Positions 16,487 through 23,624 of a stretch of 41,646 nucleotides of DNA are shown here, one piece after another (position 1 is the stretch's first letter; each line of letters starts with the position of its first letter). The translations under genes were made by a program, and so were the position numbers. The notes below the pieces were generated by a model. That model saw only the letters and a program-made list of their open reading frames with translations, was not told where the DNA came from and ran no database searches. Source of the DNA: a bacterium (GTDB taxonomy: Bacteria > Patescibacteriota > Minisyncoccia > Minisyncoccales > UBA10102); the NCBI GenBank assembly GCA_030698465.1, contig JAUYJZ010000014.1, forward strand, positions 1-41,646, given 5' to 3'.

Positions 16487-17005
16487 ATGGACATCTTATT
16501 TCAAACACTTTCTGCAATCAATAACCCTGGGCTTCAGCAAGCCTTAACGCCCTACCGCTGGATTTTGGGTATCGTGGGCGCTCTTTTATTGCTATTTTCT
16601 TTATATATACTGGCGCGTACAATGTGGCTGAAGTTTTCTTTGCTATTTGACCTTACCGAGTTTTTTACCTTTCGTCCGTATGGTCTACGGCGCATGACCG
16701 GAAAGTGGCAGAAGATTCAGCAACGCTTGGGAACCGCAAATGAGGCAGAGTACAAGCTTGCTATTATTGAAGCGGACGGTTTGCTTAATGATATTTTGCT
16801 GCGTATGGGATTTCGCGGCGAAACCCTGGGAGATAGGCTAAAGACGCTTACACCTGCTATTATTCCTAATCTCAACGATGTATGGCAGGCGCATCAGACC
16901 CGGAACAACGTGGTCCATGACCCTGATTACCGCCTACCCTTGGGGGAGGCACAAAAGACACTCGCAATCTACGAGCAGGCCTTTGGCAATCTCGATTTGA
17001 TTTAG
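16487..17005 (+). CDS. hypothetical membrane-anchored protein
   Basis: 172 aa. It has one TM segment (WILGIVGALLLLFSLYILA) and a helical C-terminal domain. Confidence 0.5.
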   Translation: MDILFQTLSAINNPGLQQALTPYRWILGIVGALLLLFSLYILARTMWLKFSLLFDLTEFFTFRPYGLRRMTGKWQKIQQRLGTANEAEYKLAIIEADGLLNDILLRMGFRGETLGDRLKTLTPAIIPNLNDVWQAHQTRNNVVHDPDYRLPLGEAQKTLAIYEQAFGNLDLI

Positions 17006-17784
17006 GTATTACGTATAAGTCCTTCGATCCAGCCGTGTATCTTTCTTCGTAGCGAGGTTCCTTGTTTGACTGTAATGCGCAGAGTTCCCATATAGGTTTC
17101 GGGATGTGGGTAGATTTTGTTTGGCTTTGTCTTAATAATCGTAGTTTTTGTAAATTGGTGGAATGGAATTCTGGTAAGTTTAGACCAATAGCTTTCAATT
17201 TCCGGGATTCGCTTTTGATGCAATTTATTTACTTTTATATGGAGTGTAATCCGCTCTTTAGAAATCTTGCAAATTTCTTTAAACCATTTCAATATCAGAA
17301 GGATAAGTTTTGGATCTGAGTTTGTGAACCCAACTTGTTCGCCCCCAGGATAGGTGTATCCTTCGCTCCAGTACATCCCCACACCAAGGATAAAAAGATC
17401 CCGCTCGGTCAAAACGCCAATTTCCTTTATTGATTTCTTGCGAAGGAAAGCAGTCTCTATTATTCGCGAACCGGCTCGTTTGGCCTTGGCGCGCTTACTA
17501 CCTTTGATCTCTCCGGAAATTTCTCGTTTCTTCAATCGCGTTCTTTGTGCGGGTGTAAGTTTTATATCCTTTGACCACATACTGAGCGATCCACCTTTTT
17601 CTATTTTAAGTCGTTTAGCAATCTGACTAAAACTAAAACCAGCTCGGCGTAATCGCTGGACACGAGTTTTTTGAAGAGAGGCCAATTTTTGCATACTTGT
17701 TGCGGGAGCCGGAATTGCACCGGCGTCGCAAGGTTCTTTCTCTACCTTTTGTTTCCAAAAGGAATGGACTATCCCATTTCCCAT
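17002..17784 (-). CDS. HTH + LAGLIDADG-type homing-endonuclease-family protein (free-standing)
   Basis: N-terminal HTH (RRAGFSFSQIAKRL) and a single LAGLIDADG-like motif (LFILGVGMYWSEGYT). An alternative start is the ATG at 17694. Confidence 0.65.
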   Translation of the reverse strand: MGNGIVHSFWKQKVEKEPCDAGAIPAPATSMQKLASLQKTRVQRLRRAGFSFSQIAKRLKIEKGGSLSMWSKDIKLTPAQRTRLKKREISGEIKGSKRAKAKRAGSRIIETAFLRKKSIKEIGVLTERDLFILGVGMYWSEGYTYPGGEQVGFTNSDPKLILLILKWFKEICKISKERITLHIKVNKLHQKRIPEIESYWSKLTRIPFHQFTKTTIIKTKPNKIYPHPETYMGTLRITVKQGTSLRRKIHGWIEGLIRNT

Positions 17785-18040
17785 TCGGGAATCCCCATTA
17801 TAGTCTCTGAACCTTCTCGCCTGAGGCGAACTTGGCTGCTGATTGCCAAATCCCTCCTTATTTTTAACCGTTCACGCTCATTCTTGCGAATCACGTTGTA
17901 GGAAGAAGGGCTCTTATGGTTTTCCAGCAATTTCGGGGATTTTCATCAAGATGTTTCCATCTTGCGCCACACGTTTGTATGGGCCTCGCATGGTACTACT
18001 CCACTATCCCGCATACCTAGTATATCCAAAAAAGAAGCGC

Positions 18041-18069
18041 TTGTAAAGATTGACATTTTAGAATATAAT
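18041..18069 (+). promoter_or_regulatory. promoter TTGTAA-17 nt-TATAAT upstream of the tRNA pair
   Basis: Read directly. The -10 box ends 11 nt before the tRNA 5' end. Confidence 0.5.
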
Positions 18070-18080
18070 ATGCATCATGC

Positions 18081-18152
18081 GGCTGCGTAGCTCAGTGGCA
18101 GAGCAAAGGACTCATAAGCCTTAGGTCAGTGGTTCGAATCCACTCGCAGCCA
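18081..18152 (+). tRNA. tRNA-Met (anticodon CAT; elongator-like, could be tRNA-Ile2 if lysidinylated)
   Basis: Hand-folded cloverleaf: acceptor GGCTGCG/CGCAGCC, D-stem GCTC/GAGC, anticodon loop CTCATAA, T-arm AGTGG-TTCGAAT-CCACT. CCA is not encoded. Confidence 0.85.
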
Positions 18153-18168
18153 CAAGGACTGAATATAT

Positions 18169-18244
18169 GCGGGCGTAGCTTAGCCTGGTTTAAAGCGCTT
18201 CCCTGTCACGGAAGAGATCGCCGGTCCAAATCCGGTCGCCCGCG
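18169..18244 (+). tRNA. tRNA-Asp (anticodon GTC)
   Basis: Acceptor GCGGGCG/CGCCCGC, anticodon stem-loop CTTCC-CTGTCAC-GGAAG, T-arm GCCGG-TCCAAAT-CCGGT, discriminator G. Confidence 0.88.
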
Positions 18245-18308
18245 CAATTTATTGCAATAAATTGCGCGAGGCTCGCCTCAAAGAGGCGGCCCGCGCCTAT
18301 TGCTATAT

Positions 18309-18554
18309 ATGAATTCTTATACTATTTACATATTAACGAGTATAAAAATTCCAAAAACATACGTTGGTTATACATCTAATCTTGCAAGGCGTTTGCGCGA
18401 GCATAATGCTGGACGCGTCAAAGCTACAAAACATTTTTGTCCATGGAATCTATTGCATAAAGAGATTGTTACTTGCTTAAGTAAAGCAAAAAAGCGAGAG
18501 CAATATTGGAAAAGTGCGGCTGGAAGAAAAAAACTCAAACTCTTTTTTGGGTAG
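18309..18554 (+). CDS. small GIY-YIG (URI-domain) nuclease-family protein
   Basis: YTIYIL...TYVGYTSNLARRLREHN...KKREQYWK pattern. The ATG is at 18309, inside the tracked ORF 18300. Confidence 0.8.
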   Translation: MNSYTIYILTSIKIPKTYVGYTSNLARRLREHNAGRVKATKHFCPWNLLHKEIVTCLSKAKKREQYWKSAAGRKKLKLFFG

Positions 18555-18610
18555 GATCGTATCATTTTGTGTTTGACGAAATTTTTCGATAACCAGTCAG
18601 CGGACTTTGC

Positions 18611-18639
18611 TTTACATATTTTTTTTGTTTTGGTAGAGT
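18611..18639 (+). promoter_or_regulatory. promoter TTTACA-17 nt-TAGAGT (TGG extended -10)
   Basis: Read directly, upstream of the PRTase gene. That gene also has an AAGGAAGGTG Shine-Dalgarno sequence. Confidence 0.45.
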
Positions 18640-18683
18640 ACAGGCAGTTATTTTAACGATGCTTCAGTAAAGGAAGGTGTCTC

Positions 18684-19346
18684 ATGGCAAACTCCCTAAA
18701 CAGGTTTGAAGAAGAGATTGGCACTGCTGTTTTTGATTCAGGAAGGGTGAGTTTTGGGGAAGTTCTTTGGCATGTGCATAGGGCGCATCCTGAACTAGAA
18801 TTGCCGCCAGCTCCTATATTTATTGATTTGGGTGCTCTGCCGCCAGAGCTTGTCATTAAAATAGGAGAAAATCTGCACAGAAAAGCCGTTCAAGAAAATA
18901 TACGCTTTGAAAGGGTGGCTGGGGTTCCAACCGGAGGCAATGGTTTTGCAGAAGCATTTTGTATGGTAGACCAGGGGAATACGTCTCGACTGCTTACATT
19001 GCAAAAGGAAGGCCAAAGAATTCTGGGCCCGGTTCAGGGATTTTATCAACCACACAATATCGTCTTGCCGGTGGAAGACGTCATCACAACTGGCGCTAGC
19101 ACGCTTGAGGCGATTGAGGTTTTTGGAGCGGAAAATTGCATTGTGCATGATGTAATGGCCGTTATTGATTATGAGTTAGGAGCGGCCCAACGCCTCAAGA
19201 CAGATGATTTAACCCTCCACCGTATCTTTCCGATCTCACAGTTGCTCGGTTTGTGGCTTGAGAAGAAAAGAATCACTATGGGGCAATACGATAAGGTAAT
19301 GGCAGTTTTGAATACCATAAGAACAAAACTAATGCCAAGTTCGTAG
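18684..19346 (+). CDS. type I phosphoribosyltransferase, orotate-PRTase-like
   Basis: PRPP-binding loop IVLPVEDVITTGAST. Adjacent to pyrB. Confidence 0.65.
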   Translation: MANSLNRFEEEIGTAVFDSGRVSFGEVLWHVHRAHPELELPPAPIFIDLGALPPELVIKIGENLHRKAVQENIRFERVAGVPTGGNGFAEAFCMVDQGNTSRLLTLQKEGQRILGPVQGFYQPHNIVLPVEDVITTGASTLEAIEVFGAENCIVHDVMAVIDYELGAAQRLKTDDLTLHRIFPISQLLGLWLEKKRITMGQYDKVMAVLNTIRTKLMPSS

Positions 19347-19402
19347 TAGCTCTTTTGCTCGATTTTCTTACCCCAAAGGCTCCTTAAGTGGAGCTAAACA
19401 AA

Positions 19403-19439
19403 ACCGCCAGGCACTCAGTCTGGCGGTCTTTTCTTTTCT
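19403..19439 (+). terminator. intrinsic terminator (ACCGCCAG-9 nt-CTGGCGGT + CTTTTCTTTTCT)
   Basis: Read directly. Confidence 0.7.
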
Positions 19440-19499
19440 GAAGAAGTATGATATAAGTTTTTTAGGTCTTTTAACCCAAAAAAAAGAGGAGGGAATCCT

Positions 19500-20444
19500 A
19501 TGGCAGCATTTCAAGGCTTTCCCCACGTGCTTGAAACCCAGCAATTCACCCGAAAATGGCTCGAAGAAAAACTCTTCCCGCTAGCTCGTGAGAAGCGGTT
19601 GTCGGTTCAAGCCCGATATGAAGATATTCCCACCTTGCTACGAGGGAAGGGGATGGCAACTCTTTTCTATGAACCAAGCACGAGAACTAGACTTTCGTTC
19701 GAAACAGCTATGCATCGCCTAGGAGGATGGGTTGTCTCTACAGAAAATGCCAGTGAGTTTTCTTCCGCGGTAAAGGGTGAGACCCTTGAAGACACGATTC
19801 GGGTGTTGAACGGCTATCGTCCAGCTGTGATTGTTTTGCGGCACCCCGAAGAAGGAGCTGCAAAAAGGGCTGCTCGCATATCCGAAGCAGCAATCATTAA
19901 CGCGGGAGATGGAACGGGTCAACATCCTACACAGGCTCTCTTAGATATCTTTACTATTCAAGAAGAGATTGGGAGAATTGACAATATTTCAGTGGCTCTA
20001 GTGGGGGATCTTGTACTTGGAAGAACAGTTCATTCTCTCGTGTATCTTCTTGGAAAGTTTATTAACGTACGTCTGTTCTTGGTGTCTCCTCCAAATCTTC
20101 GAATGAGAAGCGATATCAAAGAGTATCTGGCACAGCATGATATTTCGTTCACCGAACATACCGATCTAAGAACTGTTGCTTCTCAAGTAGATGTTATTTA
20201 CCAAACACGTACCCAAACAGAGCGGGGGTCATCTCTTGCAAAAGCTCAACCGGAAGACATATTTTGCATGGTAGATGCGCAAATTCTCAACTTGATGCAT
20301 CCCCATTCCATTATTATGCACCCCTTGCCCAGGAATGAAGAGATCAGCCCAGAAGTGGATAAAAACCCTCGAGCCGCATACTTTAGACAAGCGCAGAACG
20401 GTCTCTACGTACGTATGGCATTGCTTCAGATGATTCTGGGGTAA
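19500..20444 (+). CDS. pyrB: aspartate carbamoyltransferase catalytic chain
   Basis: STRTRLSFE, HPTQALLD, HPLPR motifs. Strong GAGGAGGG Shine-Dalgarno sequence. Confidence 0.9.
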   Translation: MAAFQGFPHVLETQQFTRKWLEEKLFPLAREKRLSVQARYEDIPTLLRGKGMATLFYEPSTRTRLSFETAMHRLGGWVVSTENASEFSSAVKGETLEDTIRVLNGYRPAVIVLRHPEEGAAKRAARISEAAIINAGDGTGQHPTQALLDIFTIQEEIGRIDNISVALVGDLVLGRTVHSLVYLLGKFINVRLFLVSPPNLRMRSDIKEYLAQHDISFTEHTDLRTVASQVDVIYQTRTQTERGSSLAKAQPEDIFCMVDAQILNLMHPHSIIMHPLPRNEEISPEVDKNPRAAYFRQAQNGLYVRMALLQMILG

Positions 20445-20504: not shown

Positions 20505-20533
20505 TTGATTTCCCCTCTATTTTAAGGTAAAAT
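20505..20533 (+). promoter_or_regulatory. promoter TTGATT-17 nt-TAAAAT, 11 nt upstream of the pheS ATG
   Basis: Read directly. Confidence 0.5.
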
Positions 20534-20544
20534 AGATATGGCGT

Positions 20545-21675
20545 ATGAAACTTGAAATTGACTCTTCAGAAGAGCTGGAAATACGGAAATCACTAGAGAA
20601 AAGAGGGGATCCAGAGGCAAAAAGAATGCTTCGGTTTTTGAATATGCCGGATTTATCGCGCACACCCGACAGTCCGCTTGGCGCAATCATAGAACGGGTG
20701 AAAAAAGTGCCTGTGCTGAAAAACTTTGACGACATTAAGATCCCTGAGATTGTTTCGACCCATGTTCTTTTCGATCTATTTAATATGCCTCCTGGTCACC
20801 CGGCTCGCAGCAAATCAGATTCTTATTATGTAGATGAGGGGCACATCCTGATAACCCACGACACAGTGATGTGGTATTTCTATTTGAACCACCCCGATGT
20901 AAAGAAAAAGATCGAGAACGGTGAAGACCTGGGGGTCATCTGTTACGCCAAAGTCTACCGCAAAGACGAAATAGACAGAAAGCACATGAACGTTTTTCAT
21001 CAGTTTGGTGGACTTTATTTGGTGCGCGACGAACAAAAGACTCTGACCATCGAGGATTTGAAAAACGCCCTTACCGAAATAGCACAAAGTATTTTCGGTA
21101 AAGATATAAAGATCCGTTTCAACCCGGACAATTTTCCCTACACGGATCCCAGTTTAGAAATGGAGATCGAGATAAACGGCCAGTGGATTGAGATGCTGGG
21201 CTGCGGTATGGCCCGTAAAAGCGTTTTGGCCAATTTCGGTCTTACTGGATACCACGGCTGGGCGTTTGGCTTCGGGCTTGAACGCATGGCCATTGTCAGT
21301 ATGAGCCTTCCTGATATCCGACTTTTATGGTCAGAGGATCCCCGGGTAAAAAAACAGTTAAAGCTTGGGAACTCTTTTGTTCCGGTAAGCAAATACCCTC
21401 CCATTACTCGCGATATTTCATTTGTTGTTGATAAGGACTTTGTTCCTAATAACTATTTTGACTTGATTCGGGATATTGGCGGAGATTTAGTTGAGGAAGT
21501 CCAACTTCTTGATAACTATGAAGATGCAAAGAAATTTGGGCTAGGCAAAATAAGTTATACCTATCGCATAGTCTATCGAAGCAACGAGAAAACATTGGTG
21601 AGCAAAGAGATTGACCTGCTCCAGGACGAACTGTACAAGCAAACCGCTAAACAATTTAGTGCCGTGCTTCGTTAG
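20545..21675 (+). CDS. pheS: phenylalanine--tRNA ligase, single-chain form (PheS-type catalytic core fused to a C-terminal FDX-ACB anticodon-binding domain)
   Basis: Catalytic motifs (PPGHPARS, VYRKDEIDRKHMNVFHQ, GWAFGFGLERMA). The C-terminus (SKYPPITRDISFVV...IGGDLVEEVQLLD...YRIVYRS) follows the pattern of mitochondrial FARS2. No pheT follows. Confidence 0.9.
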   Translation: MKLEIDSSEELEIRKSLEKRGDPEAKRMLRFLNMPDLSRTPDSPLGAIIERVKKVPVLKNFDDIKIPEIVSTHVLFDLFNMPPGHPARSKSDSYYVDEGHILITHDTVMWYFYLNHPDVKKKIENGEDLGVICYAKVYRKDEIDRKHMNVFHQFGGLYLVRDEQKTLTIEDLKNALTEIAQSIFGKDIKIRFNPDNFPYTDPSLEMEIEINGQWIEMLGCGMARKSVLANFGLTGYHGWAFGFGLERMAIVSMSLPDIRLLWSEDPRVKKQLKLGNSFVPVSKYPPITRDISFVVDKDFVPNNYFDLIRDIGGDLVEEVQLLDNYEDAKKFGLGKISYTYRIVYRSNEKTLVSKEIDLLQDELYKQTAKQFSAVLR

Positions 21676-21695: not shown

Positions 21696-23624
21696 ATGGC
21701 AACAAAAAAGAGCGCAAATCTCGAATACGGAGCAAAAGACATCGTGGTGCTTGAGGGCCTGGATCCCGTGAAAAAGCGTCCTGCAATGTATATTGGTTCT
21801 ACAGGTCCTGACGGTCTGCATCATTTGGTGTGGGAGGTTTTGGATAACTCCATTGATGAGGCCATGGCAGGATACGCAAAGAACATTGAGGTATCTTTGC
21901 TTTCTGGAAACCGCGTACAGGTTATTGATGACGGACGAGGGATCCCCATTGAAAAGCACCCCCAGACCAAGAAATCTACGCTGGAAACCGTAATGACCAT
22001 TTTGCATGCGGGCGGAAAATTCGGTGGAAAGGCATATCAGGTTTCAGGTGGGCTTCACGGGGTAGGAGTCTCTGTGGTTAACGCCCTTTCTATCTACTTG
22101 AAAGCCGAGGTATGTCGCGACGGTTTTCACTACCAGCAGGAATATACACGAGGCGTGCCCAAGGGTCAGGTAAAAAAGGTGGGAAAGTGCAAGGGGTCTG
22201 GCACACGGATTCTTTTTGAGCCAGATATTGATATTTTCAAGGAAATTAAGTTTGATGCAAGACTCATCCTCAATCATTTGCGCCAGCAGGCCTATCTCAC
22301 ATCTGGCACCAAGATTACTCTAGTGGATGCCAGGGAAAAGGAAAAGAAATCTTATACCTTCTACTTTGAGGGTGGTCTTGCTTCTTATATTCCCTATCTC
22401 GTTAAAGGAAGAGTTCCAAAACACGAAACCGTCTTTTATGTAAAGGGCGAGAAGGAAGGCATGGTAGCAGAGGTTGCCTTTCAATACACCGAAGAGTTTG
22501 AGATTATGGAGGAGAGTTTTGCCAATAACATCTATACTCCAGAAGGGGGAACTCACCTCACGGGATTTCGTTCTGCTCTGACAAGGACCTTAAATGACTA
22601 TGCAAAAAAGAACAATTTTCTAAAAGGAGAAGAACCTCTTACCGGGGACGACGTTAGAGAGGGCATGACCGTTGTGGTTTCGGTGAAAATCCGGGATCCT
22701 CAATTTGAAGGACAAACCAAGGCAAAGCTTGGAAACCCGGAAGCTAAAAACGCGGTAGAAAGCGTCACCGCCGAGGCCCTTGAGGACTACTTGGAGCGCA
22801 ATCCTCTGGATGCACGGTCCATCATTGAAAAATCTCTCCTTGCTTCCAAAGCCAGAAAGGCAGCAAAGGCAGCCCGTCAAACCGTACTCCGAAAGGGAAT
22901 ACTTGAGGGCTTGGCTTTGCCAGGAAAATTAGCTGACTGCACCTCCAAAGACCCAGAAGAGTCAGAGCTCTACATCGTAGAGGGGGAGAGTGCTGGAGGC
23001 TCAACAAAGCAAGCTAGGAACCGGTGGTTTCAGGCGGTCTTGCCCTTGAGAGGAAAAATACTGAATGTGGAACGCGCTCGCCTAGACAAAATCCTAACCT
23101 CAAAAGAAATCCGTTCTCTGGTTATTGCGTTGGGAACCGCCATTGCAGAGGATTTTGACATCGAAAAGATTCGTTACCAGCGCGTTATCATTATGACCGA
23201 TGCCGATGTGGACGGATCTCACATCCGGGCCCTGCTTCTAACTCTCTTTTACCGATACTTTAAGCCAATAATTGAACGGGGATATCTGTATATCGCTCAA
23301 CCCCCTTTGTATCAAATCCAGCAGGGCAAAAACATTCAATATGCCTTTTCTGATGGAGAGCGCGACAAAATCATTTCCCAACTCGCAAAACAAAAGAGCA
23401 GCTCGGGAACGAACGTACAGCGATACAAGGGTTTAGGTGAAATGAACCCGGAACAGCTGTGGGAAACCACTATGAATCCGGGTAATCGAGTCTTGTTCCA
23501 GGTCACCATAGAAAGCGCCAGGGAAGCGGATAAGATTTTTGACATCTTGATGGGAGATGAGGTCTACCCAAGAAAGAAGTTTATCCAGACCTATGCCAAG
23601 AGCGTTAAGAATTTGGATATCTAA
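21696..23624 (+). CDS. gyrB: DNA gyrase subunit B
   Basis: GHKL ATPase and Toprim motifs (LEGLDPVKKRPAMYIGST, EGESAGGS, IMTDADVDGSHI). Confidence 0.97.
   Translation: MATKKSANLEYGAKDIVVLEGLDPVKKRPAMYIGSTGPDGLHHLVWEVLDNSIDEAMAGYAKNIEVSLLSGNRVQVIDDGRGIPIEKHPQTKKSTLETVMTILHAGGKFGGKAYQVSGGLHGVGVSVVNALSIYLKAEVCRDGFHYQQEYTRGVPKGQVKKVGKCKGSGTRILFEPDIDIFKEIKFDARLILNHLRQQAYLTSGTKITLVDAREKEKKSYTFYFEGGLASYIPYLVKGRVPKHETVFYVKGEKEGMVAEVAFQYTEEFEIMEESFANNIYTPEGGTHLTGFRSALTRTLNDYAKKNNFLKGEEPLTGDDVREGMTVVVSVKIRDPQFEGQTKAKLGNPEAKNAVESVTAEALEDYLERNPLDARSIIEKSLLASKARKAAKAARQTVLRKGILEGLALPGKLADCTSKDPEESELYIVEGESAGGSTKQARNRWFQAVLPLRGKILNVERARLDKILTSKEIRSLVIALGTAIAEDFDIEKIRYQRVIIMTDADVDGSHIRALLLTLFYRYFKPIIERGYLYIAQPPLYQIQQGKNIQYAFSDGERDKIISQLAKQKSSSGTNVQRYKGLGEMNPEQLWETTMNPGNRVLFQVTIESAREADKIFDILMGDEVYPRKKFIQTYAKSVKNLDI

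What the first reader, a model, noticed from the sequence alone, without database searches (positions are those of the whole stretch)
20545..21675. Mitochondrial-type single-chain PheRS in a bacterium
Bacterial PheRS is normally an (alpha-beta)2 enzyme encoded by adjacent pheS-pheT. This 376-aa protein joins a PheS-type catalytic core directly to a C-terminal domain: SKYPPITRDISFVV...NYFDLIRDIGGDLVEEVQLLDNY...ISYTYRIVYRSNEKTLVSKEI. That domain matches the FDX-ACB anticodon-binding domain pattern I recall for human mitochondrial FARS2 (SKYP..I.DISF...FYDLVRTIGGDLVE.V.LID...YRITYR..ERTL). The core also tracks FARS2 closely (FPYTDPSLEMEI..G.W.E.LGCG; PDIRL.W.ED.R). No pheT follows; gyrB is next. 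The N-terminal coiled coil of bacterial PheS is missing.
Basis: partly seen in the sequence, partly recalled or inferred. Interest (0 to 1): 0.62.

Follow-up and report, generated by a model that had tools for sequence, protein, structure and literature searches.

The report
Single-chain mitochondria-like PheRS in CPR bacterium
This ultra-small (Parcubacteria/CPR) bacterium most likely charges tRNA-Phe with a one-chain enzyme built like the mitochondrial one, sitting exactly where relatives keep the usual two-subunit pheS-pheT genes, which contradicts the textbook view that this enzyme form exists only in organelles.

Summary
Window 20545-21675 (+) encodes a 376-aa protein with a PheS-type class II core (residues 43-271) joined to a full FDX-ACB anticodon-binding domain (282-376). 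Human mitochondrial PheRS is the best match by sequence (1e-58) and by predicted fold (TM 0.80, whole chain).

It is the only PheRS-like gene in this ~0.52 Mb genome, which has no pheT and no B3/B4 editing domain. Among 61 relatives, 16 genomes have the single-chain gene and 43 have pheS-pheT; none has both. Same-genus genome G004 has pheS-pheT directly upstream of gyrB-nusG-rplK-dcd, and the window has the single-chain gene in that slot.

The gene is under strong purifying selection (dN/dS 0.06). Catalytic and G34-binding residues are kept, and tRNA-Phe(GAA) is the same in both genome types.

In trees, bacterial single-chain enzymes form a clade that is sister to all sampled eukaryotic organellar PheRS, not nested in it. 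A convergent-fusion topology is rejected (AU p = 2e-5).

At least 560 species-level genomes carry it. NCBI calls most copies "hypothetical protein", and I found no paper describing it.

Verdict: real, very probably the housekeeping PheRS without editing, and a new bacterial variant of a known enzyme type. Activity, oligomeric state and direction of transfer are untested.

The parts
20545..21675 (+). Single-chain PheRS gene (376 codons plus stop)
   Evidence: ORF; domains; sole PheRS-like gene of the genome; dN/dS 0.057 against the G005 ortholog.
20545..20670 (+). Short N-terminal helical region (residues 1-42) in place of the ~100-residue PheS coiled coil
   Evidence: No PF02912 hit. The TIGR00468 alignment starts at model position 72 = residue 43. 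The AF2 model shows helices 8-19 and 23-33 at pLDDT >90.
20671..21357 (+). Class II catalytic core of PheS type (residues 43-271)
   Evidence: PF01409, 182 bits. Contains motif 2 V137-Q153 (VYRKDEIDRKHMNVFHQ), F197-S203 (FPYTDPS), G219-C220-G221 and motif 3 G238-R247 (GWAFGFGLER). These are invariant or nearly so in 45 homologs.
21358..21387 (+). End of the PheS-type C-terminal tail (...KQL) plus a ~5-residue linker (KLGNS) to the FDX-ACB domain
   Evidence: Aligned with G004 PheS C-terminus ...EDIRLFYTKDLRFLQQF* and the start of G004 PheT B8 ...YQAIPRFPAVLRDLA. This is the junction expected from a deletion inside an adjacent pheS-pheT pair.
21388..21672 (+). FDX-ACB (B8-type) anticodon-binding domain, residues 282-376
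   Evidence: PF03147 matched over its full length. R289-D290-I291-S292-F293 and Y340-R341...R345 are conserved with human mt-PheRS NDISF / YRITYR. PMC7540514 reports that an Asp, a stacking Phe and an Arg of this domain read G34.
20505..20533 (+). Promoter-like site TTGATT-17-TAAAAT, 12 nt upstream of the ATG
   Evidence: This is a consensus match only and no more frequent than in shuffled sequence, so it is weak.
21696..23624 (+). gyrB, the conserved downstream neighbour that defines the 'pheST slot'
   Evidence: In G004, pheS-pheT ends 5 nt before gyrB. All 4 canonical loci fetched and about 27 of 36 single-chain loci phylum-wide have gyrB immediately downstream.
17005..20444 (.). Variable upstream flank: LAGLIDADG gene (-), tRNAs, GIY-YIG gene, PRTase, pyrB
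   Evidence: Synteny with G004 and G005 breaks here. pyrB is absent at this place in both, and the PRTase is present only in G005.

Best explanation
The gene encodes the cell's only, housekeeping phenylalanyl-tRNA synthetase, a one-chain enzyme of the design known from mitochondria. The PheS-type class II core makes Phe-AMP and transfers Phe to tRNA-Phe. The C-terminal FDX-ACB domain, homologous to domain B8 of PheT, reads the GAA anticodon, chiefly G34, through the conserved Asp290/Phe293/Arg341-345 surface. As in human mt-PheRS, the enzyme is expected to rest in a closed state and swing the anticodon domain open to bind tRNA. There is no beta subunit and no B3/B4 editing site, so Tyr-tRNA-Phe cannot be proofread by this enzyme, and accuracy must rest on the synthetic site. 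The gene replaced pheS-pheT in place, upstream of gyrB, and has been exchanged laterally among Patescibacteria. Shown here: the architecture, the fold prediction, sole-copy status, mutual exclusivity with pheST, positional replacement, purifying selection, presence of an ordinary tRNA-Phe, and the sister-clade position. Inferred, not shown: catalytic activity, monomeric state, the open/closed cycle and the lack of any editing.
For: Domains. Best PDB sequence match is human mt-PheRS across both domains. AF2 model with pLDDT 93 and pTM 0.88 superposes whole-chain on apo human mt-PheRS (TM 0.80, rmsd 3.4 A); bacterial PheS matches the core only (TM ~0.54). No pheT, no other PheS and no B3/B4 in the own genome. 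G005 (98% complete, 4 contigs, fetched whole) has only the single-chain gene and a full set of 45 tRNAs including tRNA-Phe(GAA). Among relatives, 16 genomes have the single chain and 43 have pheT over the cutoff, with no overlap (Fisher p = 9e-15). In the phylum sample, 25 of 401 genomes are single-chain; 24 of these 25 lack B3_4, against 14 of the other 376 (p = 1e-27). Same slot as pheS-pheT upstream of gyrB. dN/dS is 0.057 and 0.081. Catalytic motifs and anticodon-contact residues are conserved: for the human residues. tRNA-Phe is the same in both genome types (G34 A35 A36, A73). The own genome has tRNA-Phe(GAA), with a group I intron.
Against: There is no biochemical evidence of any kind. 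The protein misses NCBI's curated cutoffs for pheS_mito (226 vs 258), pheS (166 vs 237) and SrmL (221 vs 300). The window's subclade carries Ile in place of a widely conserved Arg in the L-R-T-H motif (residue 103), as do 26 of 120 close homologs. The main CPR clade has FPY where other PheRS have FPF. The own assembly is 92% complete in 74 contigs, so absence in this genome alone would be weak; the argument rests on the relatives. Relatives of the protein in five larger non-CPR genomes coexist with canonical pheT, so the family is not always the sole PheRS.
Confidence: 0.88

Rival explanations
1. It is an accessory PheS-related ligase with another job (like NCBIfam's 'PheS-related mystery ligase SrmL'), and the real pheS-pheT simply lies in an assembly gap.
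For: The SrmL model scores 220.7 bits, nearly as high as pheS_mito. The own assembly is 92% complete. In five non-CPR genomes (Oligoflexia-type, 1.7-3.6 Mb) close relatives coexist with a canonical pheT.
Against: The SrmL cutoff of 300 is not met by this protein, by any of 401 Patescibacteria genomes, by 124 genomes of the other phylum, or by 14 controls. Complementarity with pheST is perfect across 59 classifiable relatives, including G005 at 98% completeness in 4 contigs. The gene sits in the pheST slot. Without it these genomes would have no PheRS at all.
Confidence: 0.05
2. The CPR enzyme is a convergent, independent fusion of CPR's own PheS and the PheT B8 domain, unrelated by descent to the mitochondrial fusion.
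For: The junction is what a deletion within an adjacent pheS-pheT pair would give, and such a deletion could happen more than once. The gene lies in the pheST slot.
Against: All single-chain proteins form one clade against canonical PheS+B8 (support 100/100). The tree that unites bacterial single-chain with CPR canonical sequences is 115 lnL units worse (p-AU 1.7e-5). CPR and mitochondrial forms share derived states in both domains: R(K/R)D.ID, PDIRL.W, SKYP..DISF, YRI.YR. Caveat: only 8 canonical outgroup sequences were used, and long branches are involved.
Confidence: 0.04
3. The gene was acquired by CPR bacteria from a eukaryote (nuclear FARS2-type gene) or from a virus, so it is a secondary import and not a bacterial lineage of its own.
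For: The closest characterised relatives are eukaryotic. Mito-type genes also occur on phage-like contigs that could act as vectors. The gene is clearly mobile among CPR.
Against: The bacterial clade (100/97) is not nested within the eukaryotic clade (100/99), which includes animals, fungi, an alveolate and a euglenid. Transfer from crown eukaryotes is therefore not supported; transfer from a stem lineage cannot be excluded. Occupancy of the pheST slot across many families fits an origin in place better. A tree with CPR canonical PheS next to all single-chain forms is not rejected (p-AU 0.45).
Confidence: 0.12
4. The contig is contamination (for example organellar or eukaryotic DNA binned into the genome).
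For: The estimated contamination of the bin is 5.7%.
Against: The whole window is collinear with same-genus genome G004, with about 77-90% protein identity in most flanking genes, and with G005. The coding style is bacterial, with gyrB, nusG, rplK and dcd adjacent.
Confidence: 0.01

Closest known systems
Mitochondrial/organellar monomeric PheRS (human FARS2, PDB 3CMQ/3TUP; NCBIfam TIGR00469 pheS_mito; 'PheRS-M' in AARS Online, PMC11580382)
   Same: One chain made of the PheS catalytic module, the complete PheS C-terminal tail, a short linker and the FDX-ACB (B8) domain. No beta subunit and no editing domain. Shortened N-terminus. Shared derived motifs in both domains. Whole-chain predicted fold at TM 0.80 to the closed apo form.
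   Different: It is encoded in a bacterial chromosome as the only PheRS, with no targeting peptide. It lacks the ~30-residue insertion of the human enzyme. It scores below the TIGR00469 cutoff (226 vs 258). It belongs to a separate bacterial clade that is sister to the eukaryotic one. Its substrate is an ordinary bacterial tRNA-Phe.
Canonical bacterial (alpha-beta)2 PheRS, pheS-pheT (TIGR00468/TIGR00472; e.g. PDB 1PYS, 3PCO)
   Same: Homologous catalytic core (about 30% identity to CPR PheS) and homologous anticodon domain (about 30% identity to PheT B8). Same genomic slot upstream of gyrB. Same tRNA-Phe.
   Different: It lacks PheT domains B1-B7, including the B3/B4 editing site and the catalytic-like module needed for the heterotetramer. 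It has no PheS coiled coil. It falls below both curated cutoffs. The review PMC3275996 states that neither alpha nor beta alone is active in the canonical enzyme and that the heterotetramer is conserved in all known prokaryotes.
NCBIfam NF051887 'PheS-related mystery ligase SrmL'
   Same: The model is 349 positions long and aligns across both the core and the FDX-ACB part of the window protein (positions 36-346), so the architecture appears to be the same.
   Different: The score is 220.7 against a cutoff of 300. No genome I searched reached the cutoff, so I could not obtain a true SrmL sequence for comparison. The name implies a protein of unknown function, which I assume (untested) coexists with a normal PheRS. 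Here the protein is the only PheRS.
Single-chain relatives in larger non-CPR bacteria (Oligoflexia-labelled MAG GCA_019694465.1, protein MBX7144632.1, and four others)
   Same: Same architecture. About 40% identical to the window protein. They nest inside the bacterial single-chain clade.
   Different: Those genomes (1.7-3.6 Mb) also keep a canonical pheT. There the protein is an extra copy of unknown role and does not sit next to gyrB.

Membership tests
Monomeric mitochondrial-type PheRS (TIGR00469 / PheRS-M) | PheS catalytic module and FDX-ACB anticodon-binding domain in one polypeptide | tested here: met
   PF01409 at residues 43-271 plus PF03147 at 282-376, matched over its full length.
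Monomeric mitochondrial-type PheRS (TIGR00469 / PheRS-M) | Curated whole-protein HMM cutoff (258.35 bits) | tested here: not met
   226.1 bits. Some other CPR members just pass: P0121 264, L022 260, L023 270.
Monomeric mitochondrial-type PheRS (TIGR00469 / PheRS-M) | Whole-chain fold as in PDB 3CMQ | tested here: met
   AF2 model (pLDDT 93) gives TM 0.79-0.80 and rmsd 3.2-3.6 A over about 386 columns to 3cmq, 5mgh and 8p8x. This rests on a prediction, not an experimental structure.
Monomeric mitochondrial-type PheRS (TIGR00469 / PheRS-M) | No beta subunit or B3/B4 editing domain in the compartment/genome it serves | tested here: met
   No pheT and no PF03483 hit in the own genome or in G005. 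24 of 25 single-chain genomes lack B3_4.
Monomeric mitochondrial-type PheRS (TIGR00469 / PheRS-M) | Phylogenetic position inside the eukaryotic organellar clade | tested here: not met
   It falls in a bacterial clade (100/97) that is sister to the eukaryotic clade (100/99).
Monomeric mitochondrial-type PheRS (TIGR00469 / PheRS-M) | Active as a monomer; charges tRNA-Phe | not testable with these tools
   Needs enzyme assays and SEC-MALS or native mass spectrometry.
Bacterial PheS alpha subunit (TIGR00468) | Curated cutoff 237.45 bits; N-terminal coiled coil; adjacent pheT partner | tested here: not met
   165.9 bits. No PF02912 hit. gyrB follows the gene and there is no pheT in the genome.
SrmL, PheS-related mystery ligase (NF051887) | Curated cutoff 300 bits | tested here: not met
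   220.7 bits. The best Patescibacteria score is 270.
Class II aminoacyl-tRNA synthetase, PheRS subclass | Motifs 2 and 3 and the Phe-pocket residues (FPF/T.PS segment, GxG, GxAFGxGxER with the pocket Ala) | tested here: met
   R139, D141, H147, F151-H152-Q153; F197-P198-Y199-T200-D201-P202-S203; G219, G221; W239-A240-F241-G242...R247. All are invariant or nearly so in the family. One variation: Tyr199 where other PheRS have Phe.
FDX-ACB anticodon-binding domain (PF03147) | Residues that read G34 in human mt-PheRS (an Asp, a stacking aromatic and an Arg; PMC7540514) | tested here: met
   D290, F293 and R341/R345 align with the human NDISF and YRITYR motifs. D290 and R345 are invariant across the bacterial clade. 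The paper's residue numbers could not be mapped one-to-one onto my reference numbering, so the assignment is by motif.

The most novel reading that the evidence does not exclude
The single-chain PheRS is a bacterial invention, made once by a deletion that removed pheT domains B1-B7 from an adjacent pheS-pheT pair (in Patescibacteria, the pair upstream of gyrB). On this reading the eukaryotic mitochondrial enzyme (FARS2/Msf1) and the copies on phage-like contigs descend from that bacterial lineage. The mitochondrial enzyme would then be neither a eukaryotic chimera nor an alphaproteobacterial inheritance. A corollary is that a sizeable branch of Bacteria lives without any PheRS editing.
Probability: 0.3. 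Interest if true: 0.85.

Novelty: new variant of a known kind. Interest (0 to 1): 0.7.

Why it matters
Reviews state that the (alpha-beta)2 PheRS is conserved in all known prokaryotes and that the monomeric form is confined to mitochondria, where it is called the only monomeric class II core enzyme (PMC3275996). Here a free-standing bacterial lineage uses that design as its only PheRS, and at least 560 species-level genomes carry a relative.

This matters for four reasons.
- It gives a bacterial sister group to FARS2. The origin of the mitochondrial enzyme becomes testable by phylogeny instead of being assumed.
- It gives natural examples of bacteria with no PheRS proofreading. They are useful for studying how much translational accuracy a minimal cell needs and how the synthetic site compensates.
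- It offers a compact (376 aa), probably monomeric, bacterial PheRS for genetic-code engineering and for structural work on FARS2 disease variants.
- It exposes an annotation gap. NCBI labels most of these essential genes 'hypothetical protein', and genome-completeness or metabolic surveys that look for pheT will wrongly score these genomes as lacking PheRS.

Tried and rejected
- **Locating true SrmL (NF051887) sequences for the tree.** No genome reached the cutoff: 0 of 401 Patescibacteria, 0 of 124 genomes around the Oligoflexia-type MAG, and 0 of 14 controls. A literature search for 'SrmL' returned only unrelated acronyms.
- **tRNA-Phe by default aragorn on the own genome.** It found none. 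BLAST with the E. coli tRNA-Phe found nothing, and a search with the B. subtilis tRNA-Phe hit only other tRNAs. The gene was found only after fetching G005 whole and using its tRNA-Phe as the query. The own copy had been missed because of a group I intron.
- **Co-evolution between PheRS type and tRNA-Phe.** Rejected, because the tRNAs are the same in both genome types.
- **G057 as a single-chain genome.** I first counted it as one. Its only hit is a 120-aa FDX-ACB fragment at a contig end, 31% identical to the window protein, which is more like a PheT tail. It is now counted as unresolved, as is G012 (neither type found).
- **A stand-alone tRNA-binding-domain protein as a trans partner specific to single-chain genomes.** The candidate is own-genome C46:8037-8267. 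Rejected as specific, because the same small gene occurs mostly in canonical-PheST relatives.
- **Mapping the residue numbers of PMC7540514 (Asp364, Phe366, Ser375, Arg414) onto the FARS2 precursor sequence.** The offsets were inconsistent, so I argue by motif only.
- **Literature searches for any prior description of a bacterial single-chain PheRS.** Searches found none. Subscription-only papers and the AARS Online web pages were not searchable.

Full report
**Observation.** The ORF at 20545-21675 (+) exists as described and encodes 376 residues. Pfam finds the PheS-type class II core (PF01409, residues 43-271, 1.5e-53). It also finds a complete FDX-ACB domain (PF03147, residues 282-376, profile positions 1-94 of 94, 1.5e-24). 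Among solved structures the best sequence matches are all human mitochondrial PheRS, at 1e-58 and 202 bits. The alignment runs through the core, the linker and the FDX-ACB domain. Bacterial PheS chains reach at most 128 bits and PheT chains at most 28 bits. gyrB follows at 21696. No PheS coiled-coil domain is detected, and only 42 residues precede the core.

**Is it the cell's PheRS?** The window is contig C66 of a 517-kb, 74-contig genome estimated at 92% complete.
- A pheT model finds only the FDX-ACB tail of this gene and a small stand-alone tRNA-binding domain.
- The PheS core model finds only this gene above threshold.
- The B3/B4 editing domain is absent.

One fragmented genome proves little, so I asked the same questions of relatives. 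Of 61 genomes of the same genus, family and order, 16 carry the single-chain gene and 43 carry a pheT above NCBI's cutoff, each with a PheS-type core match next to it. None has both, and two are unresolved (Fisher p = 9e-15). The split runs through the window's own genus: G000, G001 and G003 are single-chain, while G002 and G004 have pheST.

I fetched G005 whole (630 kb, 4 contigs, 98% complete; its protein is 90% identical to the window's). tblastn with canonical PheS and PheT finds nothing there except the single-chain gene.

In an even sample of 401 genomes of the phylum, 25 have the single-chain type, separated from canonical PheS by a clean score gap. Of these 25, 24 lack any B3/B4 domain, against 14 of the other 376 (p = 1e-27).

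**Positional replacement.** The whole window is collinear with G004 (same genus, one contig) and with G005. In G004, pheS (138533-139564) and pheT (139569-141620) lie directly upstream of gyrB-nusG-rplK-dcd. In the window and in G005 the single-chain gene occupies exactly that place. All four canonical loci I fetched, and about 27 of 36 single-chain loci from many families of the phylum, have gyrB immediately downstream. The single-chain gene is thus a positional replacement of pheS-pheT.

**Lateral exchange.** Several comparisons with G000 disagree with taxonomy.
- Same-genus genomes G001 and G003 have gyrB at 86-87% identity but PheRS at only 65-66%.
- G005, from another genus, has PheRS at 90% and gyrB at 80%.
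- Members of other families of the phylum have PheRS at 68-70% with gyrB at 54-61%.
- Between G000 and G005, PheRS has dS 0.86 and dN 0.05, whereas the adjacent gyrB has saturated dS and dN 0.16.

The gene has therefore been exchanged laterally among Patescibacteria, probably by recombination in the conserved flanks. The recombination route is my inference.

**Functional integrity.**
- dN/dS is 0.057 and 0.081 against the two closest orthologs.
- Motif 2 (V137-Q153), the FPYTDPS segment, G219-C-G221 and motif 3 (GWAFGFGLER, with the pocket Ala240) are invariant or nearly so in the family.
- In the anticodon domain, D290, F293 and R341/R345 align with the human NDISF and YRITYR motifs. PMC7540514 reports that an Asp, a stacking Phe and an Arg of this domain read G34, and that losing the Asp abolishes activity.
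- An AlphaFold2 model (pLDDT 93, pTM 0.88) superposes over the whole chain on apo human mt-PheRS (TM 0.80). It fits less well on the open tRNA-bound state 3TUP (TM 0.60). Bacterial PheS matches the core only.

**The substrate.** G005 has one tRNA-Phe(GAA) with G34-A35-A36 and A73. The window's own genome has it on contig C33, interrupted by a 214-nt group I intron in the anticodon loop (aragorn with introns allowed; Rfam RF00028 at 60.6 bits against a gathering score of 50). tRNA-Phe sequences do not differ between single-chain and pheST genomes. G005's is 97% identical to those of pheST genomes G008 and G027. The replacement needed no change in the tRNA.

**Mechanism.** The most likely working is that of mitochondrial PheRS. 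One chain activates Phe and transfers it to tRNA-Phe, and the FDX-ACB domain selects the tRNA by G34 after a closed-to-open swing. There is no post-transfer editing. The architecture, residues and predicted fold are shown here. Activity, monomeric state and the conformational cycle are inferred from the human enzyme (PMC3275996; PMC7540514).

**Relationship to known families.** NCBIfam places the protein between three models without passing any: pheS_mito 226 against 258, SrmL 221 against 300, and pheS 166 against 237.

A search of 1.8 billion cluster representatives finds only 222 clusters at E <= 1e-30. I built a tree of 89 sequences with a site-heterogeneous model, using canonical PheS+B8 from CPR and non-CPR bacteria as outgroup.
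- All single-chain proteins form one clade (100/100).
- That clade splits into a bacterial clade (100/97) and clade B (100/99).
- The bacterial clade holds the CPR sequences, a lineage readable only with TGA recoded, and five proteins from larger Oligoflexia-type genomes.

Clade B members that could be named are human, Schistosoma, three fungi, Vitrella and Euglena. All nine clade-B proteins tested pass the pheS_mito cutoff. Two lie on phage-like contigs.

The bacterial enzymes are therefore a sister lineage of the eukaryotic organellar PheRS and are not nested within it. An independent (convergent) fusion in CPR is rejected (delta lnL 115, p-AU 1.7e-5). The two groups also share derived states in both domains.

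**The junction and the origin question.** The protein carries the complete PheS C-terminal tail, five residues, and then the start of B8. A deletion inside an adjacent pheS-pheT pair would leave exactly this. A tree in which CPR canonical PheS groups with all single-chain forms is not rejected (p-AU 0.45). With only eight canonical sequences this test has little power. The direction of transfer, bacteria to the eukaryote ancestor or the reverse, stays open.

**The rival 'accessory paralog' reading.** This reading holds for the five non-CPR genomes, which keep a canonical pheT as well. It does not hold for CPR, where the single-chain gene is the only candidate PheRS.

**Spread and prior knowledge.** The record titles name many Parcubacteria lineages and Doudnabacteria. 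Sources call the protein 'hypothetical protein' (NCBI) or 'PheRS alpha chain' (JGI). Full-text searches found no paper describing a bacterial single-chain PheRS. The standard review says the heterotetramer is conserved in all known prokaryotes. Earlier notes of this scan on other genomes reached the same reading. I treat them as leads, and the points I used were re-tested here.

**Verdict.** The feature is real. It is very probably the housekeeping, editing-free PheRS of this bacterium. It is a bacterial variant of an enzyme type so far described only for organelles, with open and testable implications for the origin of FARS2.

Noticed in passing
Own genome contig C33:~3793-4079 (locus L143:1501-1787); outside the window: tRNA-Phe(GAA) is interrupted by a 214-nt group I intron in the anticodon loop (Rfam RF00028, 60.6 bits). 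Relatives G029 (250 nt) and G010 (247 nt) have the same. Default tRNA scans miss the gene.
   Followed up: partly
L053:8001-9065 (Logan SRR32456865 contig, 160 kb) and L146:1961-3007: Short (348-354 aa) mito-type PheRS genes that pass the pheS_mito cutoff lie among tightly packed, co-directional, mostly unannotated genes next to a PcfJ-like gene, with a dNMP kinase and a dCMP deaminase nearby. These look like huge-phage contigs carrying a single-chain PheRS.
   Followed up: partly
L147:6001-7245 (GCA_019694465.1, Oligoflexia-labelled MAG) and L150, L152-L154: Five of 124 genomes of that phylum (1.7-3.6 Mb) carry a single-chain PheRS relative in addition to a canonical pheT. These proteins nest inside the CPR clade, and their role is unknown.
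   Followed up: partly
L054:8001-9371 / L055:154-1524: A 456-aa single-chain PheRS at the base of the bacterial clade is readable only if TGA is read as an amino acid. This suggests a code-25/4 lineage (perhaps Gracilibacteria or Absconditabacteria) also uses this enzyme type.
   Followed up: no
window 20851-20853 (residue 103): The window protein and 26 of 120 close homologs have Ile where other PheRS have the Arg of the L-R-T-H motif (ILITHD vs ILRTHD/T). The main CPR clade also has FPY where other PheRS have FPF (Tyr199). Whether either change affects Tyr discrimination is unknown.
   Followed up: partly
window 17005-20444: The flank upstream of the PheRS slot is the only break in synteny with G004 and G005. 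It holds a LAGLIDADG gene, tRNAs, a GIY-YIG gene, a PRTase and a pyrB that neither relative has at this place. Homing endonucleases beside a laterally replaced gene may not be a coincidence.
   Followed up: no
Own genome C46:8037-8267 (L002) and relatives: CPR canonical PheT proteins start at about model position 157, so they lack the N-terminal B1/B2 domains (as PMC5370408 noted). Many genomes of both PheRS types carry a separate 105-160-aa tRNA-binding-domain gene matching PheT positions 40-125.
   Followed up: no
G028:C7:578-1699 and G028:C3:100683-101804: One relative carries two single-chain PheRS genes (68% and 66% identical to the window protein). This could be a duplication, a second acquisition, or the bin's 3% contamination.
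   Followed up: no
G351: One single-chain genome has a weak stand-alone B3_4 hit (E = 1e-8). It might be a free-standing editing-domain relative.
   Followed up: no
G005:C1:37340-37579 (L116): tRNA-Phe and the neighbouring tRNA-Gly of G005 have T-loops reading TCCGA, with C at the near-universal U55 position.
   Followed up: no
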